Positions 5,875 through 6,925 of a stretch of 64,000 bases of DNA are shown piece after piece (within the stretch, counting starts at the first letter, position 1; each line of letters starts with the position of its first letter). The stretch lies in the NCBI RefSeq assembly GCF_003334355.1, contig NZ_QOWP01000011.1; one strand, 5' to 3'. This stretch comes from Escherichia coli. Its GTDB lineage: Bacteria > Pseudomonadota > Gammaproteobacteria > Enterobacterales > Enterobacteriaceae. Made by a program: the position numbers and the translations under genes. Under the pieces are notes generated by a model that worked only from the letters and a program-made list of their open reading frames with translations, did not search any database and was not told the DNA's origin.

Positions 5875-5960
5875 GGGGAGGATATTGTTGGTCCGGTAAA
5901 CGCGGTGCCATCGGGCAAAATTAGCTCGGAGTAACAGGTTTTGAGTATTTCAGGAAGTGA

Positions 5961-6496
5961 TGGTGGTGGGGGAAGGATTACTCAGCGCTGCGCGCTTCGC
6001 CCTTCGGGTCGTTGCCTGCGGCAACGCTCTCTCGCTGGCGCTCAAGTCGAACCTTGGTCGAAGCTTCTCATCCTTCCCCGCTTGGGCAGAATATTTAATT
6101 GCGGATTCGTTTGAGAGTTTACGGACTTTTGAAAAGTGATGGTGGTGGGGGAAGGATTACTCAGCGCTGCGCGCTTCGCCCTTCGGGTCGTTGCCTGCGG
6201 CAACGCTCTCTCGCTGGCGCTCAAGTCGAACCTTGGTCGAAGCTTCTCATCCTTCCCCGCTTGGGCAGAATATTTAATTGCGGATTCGTTTGAGAGTTTA
6301 CGGACTTTTGAAAAGTGATGGTGGTGGGGGAAGGATTACTCAGCGCTGCGCGCTTCGCCCTTCGGGTCGTTGCCTGCGGCAACGCTCTCTCGCTGGCGCT
6401 CAAGTCGAACCTTGGTCGAAGCTTCTCATCCTTCCCCGCTTGGGCAGAATATTTAATTACGGATTCGTTTGAGAGTTCAGGGACTTTTGAAAGTGA
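5961..6496 (-). repeat. rttR: three tandem 179-bp tRNA-Tyr trailer repeats (rtT/rttR RNA region of the tyrT operon)
   Basis: Units begin at 5961, 6140, 6319 (period 179), each starting with the reverse complement of the tRNA-Tyr 3' 19-mer; copies are near-identical. Confidence 0.85.
5982..6071 (-). pseudogene. tpr: tpr-like protamine-like small ORF, interrupted by in-frame TGA at codon 10 (6042-6044)
   Basis: ATG at 6071 gives MRSFDQGST then TGA; the continuing frame to 5982 encodes an Arg-rich tail matching recalled Tpr if the codon were CGA; same arrangement in repeat copies 2 and 3. Confidence 0.3.
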
Positions 6497-6581
6497 TGGT
6501 GGTGGGGGAAGGATTCGAACCTTCGAAGTCGATGACGGCAGATTTACAGTCTGCTCCCTTTGGCCGCTCGGGAACCCCACC
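6497..6581 (-). tRNA. tyrV: tRNA-Tyr (GUA)
   Basis: 85-nt exact reverse complement of E. coli tRNA-Tyr including CCA; anticodon at 6545-6547 (plus-strand tac). Confidence 0.95.
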
Positions 6582-6615
6582 AGGGGTAATTCAAATTTCG
6601 AGGTAATGCTTGAGA

Positions 6616-6790
6616 TGGTGGTGGGGGAAGGATTATTCGTCGCTTCGCTCCTCACCCTTCGGGCCGTTGCCTGTGGCAACGTTCTCTCGCTTTCGCTCGA
6701 ATCGAACCTTAGTCGAAGGTTCTCACCCTTCCCCGATGAGTGCAAACTTTCACAATCTCACCGAAGTTACCACATCGCTGTGGTGAATTA
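6616..6790 (-). repeat. diverged copy of the 179-bp trailer repeat forming the tyrT-tyrV spacer
   Basis: Starts with tggtggtgggggaaggatt and is recognisably homologous to the 5961-6496 units but with many substitutions. Confidence 0.6.
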
Positions 6791-6875
6791 TGGTGGTGGG
6801 GGAAGGATTCGAACCTTCGAAGTCGATGACGGCAGATTTACAGTCTGCTCCCTTTGGCCGCTCGGGAACCCCACC
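6791..6875 (-). tRNA. tyrT: tRNA-Tyr (GUA), promoter-proximal copy
   Basis: Second 85-nt exact tRNA-Tyr sequence on minus strand; anticodon at 6839-6841. Confidence 0.95.
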
Positions 6876-6925
6876 ACGGGGTAATGCTTTTTACTGGCCT
6901 GCTCCCTTATCGGGAAGCGGGGCGC

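What the first reader, a model, noticed from the sequence alone, without database searches (positions are those of the whole stretch)
5935..6880. tRNA-Tyr pair embedded in 179-bp tandem repeats that each restart with the tRNA 3' end
The plus-strand 19-mer tggtggtgggggaaggatt (reverse complement of the last 19 nt of tRNA-Tyr including CCA) recurs at 5961, 6140 and 6319 (period 179 bp). It then forms the true 3' end of tyrV at 6497, appears in a diverged unit at 6616, and is the 3' end of tyrT at 6791. Read on the minus strand this is tRNA followed by three trailer units each ending in a pseudo-3'-end, which is the known tyrT trailer (rtT RNA) architecture. It is a clean case of tRNA-segment duplication inside an operon.
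Basis: partly seen in the sequence, partly recalled or inferred. Interest (0 to 1): 0.5.

Follow-up and report, generated by a model that had tools for sequence, protein, structure and literature searches.

The report
tyrT-tyrV tRNA operon with RtT repeats

Summary
The 19-mer occurs exactly six times, at the stated positions. ARAGORN calls two tRNA-Tyr(GUA) genes on the minus strand at 6497-6581 and 6791-6875. Tandem Repeats Finder reports a 179-bp array with 3.1 copies at 98% identity. Rfam RF00391 (RtT) matches four units at 133-134 bits against a threshold of 45.

The locus is E. coli narI | RtT x3 | tyrV | RtT | tyrT | purU. These units are the classical "tRNA-linked repeats" (Egan & Landy 1978; Rudd 1999).

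What I added:
- **Period:** the 19-mer spacings are 178, 179 and 179 bp here, against 178, 178 and 178 in K-12.
- **Copy number:** it varies in exact register among E. coli genomes, with 0-6 trailer units, 0-2 spacer units and 1-2 tRNA genes.
- **Structure:** across about 100 Enterobacterales species the unit folds in a way supported by covariation (15 of 34 pairs compensatory).
- **3' end:** it follows the tRNA immediately upstream, including a tRNA-Gln case in a Cellvibrionaceae genome.
- **tpr:** the "protamine-like" ORF is broken in all three units here and is not conserved.

The proposed stringent-response role of rtT RNA was retracted, so the function remains unknown. Verdict: real and correctly interpreted, already known, low interest.

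The parts
6926..6953 (-). tyrT operon promoter: -35 TTTACA (6953-6948), 16-nt spacer, -10 TATGAT (6931-6926), followed by the GC-rich discriminator GCGCCCCGC
   Evidence: Promoter scan, 10 of 12 matches with TG before the -10; sequence read on the minus strand. That this is the classical tyrT promoter is from my own knowledge. The transcription start was not mapped here.
6791..6875 (-). tyrT, tRNA-Tyr(GUA), 85 nt, CCA encoded
   Evidence: ARAGORN; Rfam tRNA 53.4 bits; RefSeq annotation of syntenic loci.
6616..6790 (-). Spacer tRNA-linked repeat (175 nt from the base after the tyrT CCA to its own pseudo-CCA). The Rfam RtT core is 6616-6747. It ends in the 19-nt copy of the tRNA 3' end.
   Evidence: RF00391 at 132.9 bits; 19-mer at 6616; 83% identical to the trailer core; identical to the K-12 spacer unit.
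6582..6615 (-). 34-nt spacer between the pseudo-CCA of the spacer unit and the 5' end of tyrV (the tyrV leader)
   Evidence: Sequence. In strains without the spacer unit the two tRNA genes are separated by exactly this 34 nt, giving a 119-bp 19-mer spacing.
6497..6581 (-). tyrV, tRNA-Tyr(GUA), identical to tyrT over the mature 85 nt
   Evidence: ARAGORN; family D2, 91-nt copies 99% identical.
6319..6496 (-). Trailer unit 1 (178 nt). RtT core is 6319-6450. The equivalent of the K-12 rttR RNA (171 nt) is 6319-6489. The equivalent of the tpr ORF is 6340-6429 and is interrupted by TGA at codon 10.
   Evidence: RF00391 at 134.2 bits. K-12 rttR starts 7 nt after tyrV and ends 178 nt after the tyrV 3' end.
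6140..6318 (-). Trailer unit 2 (179 nt; one extra T in the T-run after the pseudo-CCA). RtT core is 6140-6271.
   Evidence: It is identical to unit 3 and differs from unit 1 at 4 positions.
5961..6139 (-). Trailer unit 3 (179 nt), the last unit. RtT core is 5961-6092.
5823..5960 (-). Unique distal flank of the trailer. It begins TCACTTCC, sharing the TCACTT that follows tyrV and every trailer unit, and contains a REP-like palindrome (GTCGGAT/ATCCGAC, 5845-5869).
   Evidence: Sequence; inverted repeat. The scan found no intrinsic terminator on the minus strand.

Best explanation
**Identity.** This is the E. coli tyrT-tyrV tRNA operon. One tRNA-linked repeat (TLR, Rfam RtT) lies in the spacer and three lie in tandem in the trailer.

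**DNA level (shown by comparison).** Each unit is a module bounded by the same 19-nt copy of the tRNA 3' end. Unequal crossing-over or replication slippage between these in-register copies adds and removes whole units, and whole tRNA genes. That explains why copy number differs between strains in quantised steps of 175, 119 and 178/179 bp. It also explains why each unit's pseudo-3' end stays identical to the tRNA gene just upstream.

**RNA level (inferred from anatomy, from the K-12 annotation and from the old literature).** The tyrT promoter drives one transcript through tyrT, the spacer unit and tyrV into the trailer. No intrinsic terminator follows, so termination is probably Rho-dependent within the C-rich, G-poor pseudo-3'-end/linker segments. 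Each unit repeats the tRNA 3' end plus the following TCACTT. The endonuclease cut and 3' trimming that mature the tRNA would therefore also release discrete RtT RNAs ending in ...ACCACCA.

**Fold and function.** Each RtT RNA folds into a 9-10-bp closing helix (GGGGAAGGAU/AUCCUUCCCC) around four or five small hairpins, with an 8-nt single-stranded CACCACCA tail. The fold is conserved by selection, but its cellular function is not known. My best guess is a cis role in 3' processing or termination of the tRNA transcript, not a trans-regulatory RNA or a protein-coding gene.
For: - **Anatomy:**
- **Identity and synteny (narI / purU):**
- **Published definition of TLRs:** 18-19 nt identical to the 3' end of the upstream tRNA or rRNA, and 22 copies at 10 loci in K-12 (PMC8144298).
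- **Quantised copy-number variation in E. coli:** architectures TT, Tu, TTu, TTuu, TuTuu, TuTuuu, TuTuuuu and TuuTuuuuuu, with spacings of only 175, 119 and 178/179 bp.
- **Recent homogenisation here:** units 2 and 3 are identical and unit 1 differs at 4 sites, against 7-9 differences among K-12 units.
- **Cross-species association:** 99 loci, with units on the same strand as and next to tRNA-Tyr(GTA) wherever a tRNA lay within reach, the one exception being L088 (tRNA-Gln).
- **Tracking of the 3' end:** units carry the same 3'-end variant as their tRNA, 9/9 for ...CCCCCGCCACCA and 7/7 for ...CCTTCTCCC.... In loci whose two tRNA genes differ, each unit follows the gene upstream of it (L022, L087, L085, L096, L076, L026).
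- **Non-Tyr case:** an RF00391-scoring unit after tRNA-Gln ends in that tRNA's own 3' end (L088).
- **Structure:** 96.1% of cells paired and 15 of 34 pairs with compensatory change, against 5.8 +/- 1.2 in shuffles (0 of 500 reach it) and 2-6 in slid controls.
- **Processing:** K-12 rttR is annotated from 7 nt after tyrV to exactly the first pseudo-CCA.
- **Termination:** no intrinsic terminator on the minus strand. + strand GC skew of +0.57 to +0.70, i.e. C-rich and G-poor RNA, recurs once per unit at the pseudo-3' end and linker.
Against: - No expression data were available, so transcription through all three units, the cleavage sites and Rho dependence are inferred or recalled, not shown.
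- Single-sequence folding is not unusually stable (z = -0.9 to -2.3).
- Some complete E. coli genomes have no unit at all (L009, architecture TT), so the units are dispensable for viability and for tRNA-Tyr expression.
- The loci were collected with a pattern lying in helix 2, so that helix's invariance is partly ascertainment.
- The covariation shuffles do not correct for phylogeny.
Confidence: 0.9

Rival explanations
1. The units have no function. They are neutral or selfish by-products of unequal recombination seeded by the tRNA 3' end, and they are transcribed and processed only because they sit in the trailer.
For: Copy number ranges from 0 to 6 trailer units and 0 to 2 spacer units among complete E. 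coli genomes. No function is known after more than 40 years. Tandem units can be identical, which points to fast turnover.
Against: The ~110-nt interior, which is not tRNA sequence, is conserved across Enterobacterales at 79% mean column identity, and 15 base pairs are kept through compensatory changes. The closing helix compensates when the tRNA-derived strand changes (L064 and L070: C to T at the 3' strand with G to A at the 5' strand). A unit of the same family follows tRNA-Gln in another order.
Confidence: 0.3
2. RtT RNA is a trans-acting regulatory RNA that modulates the stringent response or the response to amino-acid starvation.
For: This was the original proposal of Bosl & Kersten 1991, still repeated in later papers. 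The RNA is structured and conserved. rRNA-operon members of the same repeat family bind Hfq and CsrA in vitro (PMC8144298).
Against: According to PMC8144298 the claim was withdrawn, because the phenotype came from a neighbouring ORF (Bosl & Kersten 1994). The 19 tRNA-operon TLRs scored below 0.01 as CsrA binders. Some strains lack all units.
Confidence: 0.08
3. The repeats are protein-coding: the 29-aa 'protamine-like protein' Tpr on the minus strand, or YchS on the plus strand.
For: K-12 annotates tpr (b1229) inside the first trailer unit and ychS (b1228) over the distal units. The K-12 first unit has the intact [32 protein letters not shown].
Against: In this window all three units carry TGA at codon 10, and in K-12 only one of three units is intact. 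Among 66 distinct units from many species, 45 stop after 5 codons, and 1-nt indels shift the frame. The substitution pattern is that of paired RNA helices. The plus-strand ORFs are repeat artefacts, and one of them reads antisense through both tRNA genes (6315-6884).
Confidence: 0.02

Closest known systems
tRNA-linked repeats (TLR) of E. coli / Rfam RF00391 RtT RNA, tyrT locus (Egan & Landy 1978; Rudd 1999; Bosl & Kersten 1991)
   Same: Same locus (narI-tyrV-tyrT-purU), same layout (one spacer unit and three trailer units, as in K-12), same 19-nt tRNA 3'-end copy, and a full-length RF00391 match at 133-134 bits.
   Different: Allelic differences only. Two units are 179 bp instead of 178 bp. 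Units 2 and 3 are identical to each other. The tpr frame is interrupted in all three units. The locus is 97.5% identical to K-12.
RrA/RrB/RrF, the TLR members downstream of 5S rRNA in rrnA/B/D (PMC8144298)
   Same: Same repeat class. They lie in the trailer of a stable-RNA operon, are co-transcribed, end in an 18-nt copy of the 3' end of the upstream stable RNA, and are processed to a discrete RNA.
   Different: They follow 5S rRNA and sit between two intrinsic terminators. They carry GGA motifs and bind Hfq and CsrA in vitro. The tRNA-operon TLRs, including these, scored below 0.01 as CsrA binders.
3' external transcribed spacer RNAs of tRNA operons acting as sRNA sponges (3'ETS-leuZ of glyW-cysT-leuZ; my own knowledge, not checked here)
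   Same: A stable RNA by-product released from a tRNA precursor by the tRNA-processing nucleases.
   Different: 3'ETS-leuZ is a short unique spacer with demonstrated base-pairing to RyhB and RybB. It is not a tandem repeat and does not mimic the tRNA 3' end. No pairing target is known for RtT.

Membership tests
tRNA-linked repeats (TLR) / Rfam RF00391 RtT | Lies in a tRNA (or rRNA) operon, on the same strand as and downstream of the stable-RNA gene | tested here: met
   All four units are on the minus strand, directly after tyrT (one unit) or tyrV (three units).
tRNA-linked repeats (TLR) / Rfam RF00391 RtT | [quoted passage not shown] | tested here: met
   The 19-nt match is exact in all four units. 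The same rule holds across species and for a tRNA-Gln case.
tRNA-linked repeats (TLR) / Rfam RF00391 RtT | Scores above the RF00391 gathering threshold (45 bits) over the whole model | tested here: met
   134.2, 134.2, 134.2 and 132.9 bits, model positions 1-130 of 130.
tRNA-linked repeats (TLR) / Rfam RF00391 RtT | Conserved secondary structure: closing helix between the 5' end and the tRNA-derived 3' strand, plus internal hairpins | tested here: met
   RNAalifold consensus on 70 distinct units. 96.1% of cells paired and 15 of 34 pairs compensatory, with 0 of 500 shuffles reaching that.
tRNA-linked repeats (TLR) / Rfam RF00391 RtT | Transcribed with the tRNAs and released as a discrete ~171-nt RNA | not testable with these tools
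   Only annotation is available. K-12 rttR is 171 nt, running from 7 nt after tyrV to the first pseudo-CCA. No expression data exist for this strain.
E. coli tyrT-tyrV locus | Two identical tRNA-Tyr(GUA) genes between narI and purU, with the tyrT promoter on the purU side | tested here: met
   All 5,426 genomes have a match, and 3,637 hold a place covering at least 80% of the query. The flanking genes are narI and purU. The promoter-like site is at 6953-6926.
tpr 'protamine-like protein' gene (b1229) | Intact 29-codon ORF inside the first trailer unit | tested here: not met
   TGA at codon 10 in all three units of the window. The frame is not conserved in 66 units from other species.
Rho-dependent terminator in the tyrT trailer (Kupper et al. 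1978; my own knowledge) | Termination requires Rho and occurs inside the repeats | not testable with these tools
   The sequence is consistent with it. No intrinsic terminator was found on the minus strand, and a C-rich, G-poor stretch recurs once per unit.

The most novel reading that the evidence does not exclude
The RtT/TLR unit is a selected, structured RNA module, not a passive duplication. Its closing helix and ACCACCA tail would imitate the T-arm/acceptor end of whichever tRNA precedes it. The imitation would be kept exact by recombination with that tRNA gene. Its strain-variable copy number would tune 3' processing, Rho termination or nuclease/CCA-enzyme titration for that tRNA operon. 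The tRNA::RtT chimeras joined at CTTCGA-AGGTTCGA (L042, L053, L054) would then suggest that the unit arose from a tRNA T arm split by an insertion of about 70 nt.
Probability: 0.2. Interest if true: 0.45.

Novelty: already known. Interest (0 to 1): 0.12.

Why it matters
For the scan it matters little. This is a textbook locus, sequenced in 1978, named in Rfam and annotated by RefSeq's pipeline in syntenic E. coli genomes. Its residual value is that tRNA-linked repeats still have no known function although they are conserved, structured and highly polymorphic in copy number. The comparative results here narrow the options: covariation supports the fold, each unit's 3' end tracks the upstream tRNA, copy-number changes are quantised, and the tpr frame is not conserved. 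Together they point to an RNA-level cis role and away from a protein or a stringent-response regulator. They also caution against annotating tpr or ychS as genes.

Tried and rejected
1. **Are the units degenerate tRNAs?** Neither ARAGORN nor the Rfam tRNA model (E up to 1) hits any unit, so I rejected this.
2. **Second block of tRNA homology inside the unit.** CTTCGACCAAGGTTCG resembles the tRNA T-arm segment CTTCG-AAGGTTCG. Within the window this is not significant: 282 of 2000 shuffles for the trailer unit and 86 of 2000 for the spacer unit reach the score. I keep it only as a hypothesis, prompted by chimeras in other species.
3. **Single-sequence folding as evidence of structure.** The z-scores are only -0.9 to -2.3, so I relied on covariation instead.
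4. **Primary literature.** Bosl & Kersten 1991 (PMC329039) is not held, and the library holds no paper on Rho termination at tyrT. Those points are marked as my own knowledge. One paper listed for 'RtT' (PMC10542128) no longer contains the term in its current version.
5. **Full copy-number census of the 5,426 E. coli genomes.** The search lists at most 60 records, so only an evenly spaced sample and eight fetched loci were analysed.
6. **Intrinsic terminator for the operon.** None was found on the minus strand.

Full report
**1. The observation**

The 19-mer TGGTGGTGGGGGAAGGATT is present without mismatch at 5961, 6140, 6319, 6497, 6616 and 6791. It occurs nowhere else in the 64-kb window, even when three mismatches are allowed. 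The chance expectation is 0.01.

Tandem Repeats Finder reports a 179-bp period with 3.1 copies at 98% identity over 5955-6515. The repeat finder places four copies in register, the fourth (6610-6788) at 67% ungapped identity.

ARAGORN finds exactly two tRNA genes in the window, both tRNA-Tyr(GTA) on the minus strand, at 6497-6581 and 6791-6875. The only refinement is that the spacing is 179, 179 and then 178 bp.

**2. What it is**

Against Rfam, four minus-strand segments match RF00391 "RtT RNA" over the whole model. They are 5961-6092, 6140-6271 and 6319-6450 at 134.2 bits each, and 6616-6747 at 132.9 bits. The gathering score is 45.

A megablast of 5650-7150 against 5,426 complete E. coli genomes finds the locus in all of them, flanked by narI and purU. 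RefSeq annotates the units as "RtT sRNA, processed from tyrT transcript".

The curated K-12 record names the features as follows:
- tyrT is on the promoter and purU side, and tyrV is distal.
- rttR is 171 nt.
- tpr is a 29-codon ORF inside the first unit.
- ychS lies on the opposite strand over the distal units.

K-12 rttR begins 7 nt after tyrV and ends exactly 178 nt after the tyrV 3' end, which is at the first pseudo-CCA. The equivalent here is 6319-6489.

A promoter-like site lies at 6953-6926 on the minus strand: TTTACA, 16 nt, TATGAT, then a GC-rich discriminator.

The window is not K-12. The locus is 97.5% identical to K-12. Its 19-mer spacings are 178/179/179 bp against 178/178/178 bp in K-12.

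**3. What is already published**

PMC8144298 summarises the class as "tRNA-linked repeats" (TLRs):
- They were first described by Egan & Landy in 1978.
- Rudd (1999) catalogued 22 copies at ten loci in K-12.
[quoted passage not shown] It adds that TLRs "have no known function". Later papers still repeat the stringent-response idea.

**4. Anatomy on the RNA strand**

Reading the minus strand, the order is:
- promoter;
- a leader of roughly 40 nt;
- tyrT (85 nt);
- spacer unit (175 nt, ending ...AAUCCUUCCCCCACCACCA);
- 34-nt spacer;
- tyrV (85 nt);
- trailer units of 178, 179 and 179 nt;
- unique flank.

The bases after the CCA of tyrV and after each trailer pseudo-CCA are the same (UCACUU...). 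Each unit therefore repeats the tRNA end and also its immediate 3' context.

Each unit is predicted to fold with a 10-bp closing helix, GGGGAAGGAU/AUCCUUCCCC. This helix uses the tRNA-derived T-stem and acceptor 3' strand. An 8-nt tail, CACCACCA, stays single-stranded, and several small hairpins sit inside. Single-sequence stability is unremarkable (z from -0.9 to -2.3).

The scan found no intrinsic terminator on the minus strand. Once per unit the RNA is C-rich and G-poor, with + strand GC skew of +0.57 to +0.70 at the pseudo-3' end and linker. That fits the Rho-dependent termination reported for this trailer. The report itself is my own recollection and was not testable here.

**5. Variation within E. 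coli**

Eight fetched loci and the window give these architectures, where T is a tRNA-Tyr gene and u is a unit:

| Architecture | Source |
|---|---|
| TT | L009 |
| Tu | L008 |
| TTu | L004 |
| TTuu | L005 |
| TuTuu | L003 |
| TuTuuu | window, K-12, L002 |
| TuTuuuu | L006 |
| TuuTuuuuuu | L007 |

All spacings are 175, 119 or 178/179 bp. Gains and losses are therefore exact whole modules, as expected from unequal exchange or slippage between the in-register copies.

In the window, units 2 and 3 are identical and unit 1 differs at 4 sites. K-12 units differ at 7-9 sites from one another. This points to a recent duplication or conversion.

A complete census was not possible. In the evenly spaced sample, 29 rows cover at least 98% of the query. 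Of these, 11 have the four-unit arrangement, 5 have three units, 6 have two and 7 have one.

**6. Variation across species**

One scan of a collection holding one genome per species, using a pattern from the unit interior, returned 99 loci. Nearly all were Enterobacterales. nhmmer plus ARAGORN show the units on the same strand as, and adjacent to, tRNA-Tyr(GTA) wherever a tRNA lay within reach, the one exception being L088 described below.

The pseudo-3' end co-varies with the tRNA:
- Where the tRNA ends ...CCCCCGCCACCA, 9 of 9 units carry the same end.
- Where it has ...CCTTCTCCC..., 7 of 7 units do.

Where the two tRNA genes of one locus differ, each unit follows the gene upstream of it (L022, L087, L085, L096, L076, L026). 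The A/G position lies in the unit's unpaired tail, so the unit's own fold cannot explain it. It reflects copying or conversion from the tRNA gene.

Where the change falls in the closing helix, the 5' strand compensates (L064, L070).

One locus lies outside Enterobacterales. It is a Cellvibrionaceae MAG with the layout lolB-ispE-tRNA-Gln-unit-prs. Its RF00391-scoring unit (57.4 bits) ends in AATCCTTCCACCCCAGCCA, the 3' end of its own tRNA-Gln. This matches the published TLR rule.

**7. Is the fold selected?**

On 70 distinct units (alignment A1) RNAalifold predicts the closing helix and four hairpins. I added a fifth hairpin by hand. Counting on that structure gives the following:

| Measure | Observed | Controls |
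|---|---|---|
| Cells paired | 96.1% | 34-48% when partners are slid |
| Pairs with compensatory changes | 15 of 34 | 5.8 +/- 1.2 in shuffles (0 of 500 reach 15); 2-6 when slid |

Two caveats apply. Helix 2 overlaps the search pattern, so its invariance is partly ascertainment. The shuffles also ignore phylogeny. Even so, helices 3, 4 and 6 show many independent pair types, so the interior is an RNA structure under constraint.

**8. Is it coding?**

The K-12 first unit contains the intact tpr frame. In this window all three units have TGA at codon 10. Among 66 units from other species, 45 stop after five codons, and single-base indels are common. The plus-strand ORFs over the repeats are repeat artefacts. 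One of them runs antisense through both tRNA genes. Protein coding is rejected as the conserved function.

**9. A lead that did not hold up in the window**

The unit interior contains CTTCGACCAAGGTTCG, which resembles the tRNA T arm. In Leclercia, Citrobacter amalonaticus and Cedecea there are chimeras in which a tRNA-Tyr 5' part runs into a unit interior exactly at this motif. These chimeras suggest recombination at the motif, or descent of the unit from a T arm split by an insertion. In the window alone the similarity is not significant, at 282 and 86 of 2000 shuffles. This remains a hypothesis.

**10. Verdict**

The feature is the classical tyrT-tyrV locus with its tRNA-linked (RtT) repeats, which is already known. 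The mechanism I commit to has two parts, stated with different confidence.

I hold these with high confidence:
- modular unequal exchange at the DNA level;
- co-transcription with the tRNAs;
- release of the units by the tRNA 3'-processing machinery.

I hold these with low confidence:
- Rho-dependent termination within the array;
- a cis role in processing or termination as the reason the fold is conserved.

Interest is low.

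Noticed in passing
window 6340-6429 (-), and the same frame in units 2 and 3 (6161-6250, 5982-6071): The K-12 'protamine-like protein' ORF tpr (b1229) is interrupted by TGA at codon 10 in all three trailer units of this strain. In K-12 only one of three units is intact. In 45 of 66 units from other species the frame stops after 5 codons. tpr is probably not a real gene.
   Followed up: yes
window 5957-6139, 6136-6318, 6315-6884 (+): Plus-strand ORFs of 60, 60 and 189 aa run through the repeats, and the last reads antisense through tyrV and tyrT. 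K-12 annotates a comparable ORF as ychS (b1228). They look like repeat artefacts.
   Followed up: partly
window 5845-5869, with narI 3' flank 5799-5824: A REP-like palindrome (GTCGGAT, 11 nt, ATCCGAC) lies between the last trailer unit and a hairpin followed by a T-run (CCCTGCTTCGGCGGGGTTTTTT). The hairpin looks like the intrinsic terminator of the convergent narGHJI operon, but the terminator scan did not flag it.
   Followed up: partly
L042:2727-2881, L053:4975-5120, L054:1555-1660: These are tRNA-Tyr::RtT chimeras in Leclercia, Citrobacter amalonaticus and Cedecea colo. A tRNA 5' part, partly degenerate, continues at CTTCGAAGGTTCGA into the interior and 3' end of a unit. In the latter two species the chimera sits just after the promoter. 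Similar upstream 'u' hits appear in L013, L014, L033, L060 and L092.
   Followed up: partly
L088:2804-3053: A Cellvibrionaceae MAG contig (lolB-ispE-tRNA-Gln-unit-prs) carries an RF00391-scoring unit (57.4 bits). Its last 19 nt equal the 3' end of its own tRNA-Gln. A second, degenerate copy follows at about 3110-3170.
   Followed up: partly
L009, L008, L007 (E. coli genomes NZ_CP104665.1, NZ_CP048604.1, NZ_CP195143.1): These are extreme alleles of the locus: no repeat unit at all (TT), a single tRNA-Tyr gene with one unit (Tu), and two spacer units plus six trailer units (TuuTuuuuuu).
   Followed up: yes
L047 and L074: Contigs labelled Chryseobacterium sp. 18061 and Martelella alba carry an enterobacterial-type tyrT locus with RtT units. 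This may reflect contamination or mislabelling of those assemblies.
   Followed up: no
window 53555-53757 (+) and 41022-41115 (-): The only other Rfam matches above threshold in the window are the enterobacterial sRNA STnc180 (198 bits) and the tryptophan operon leader (93 bits).
   Followed up: no
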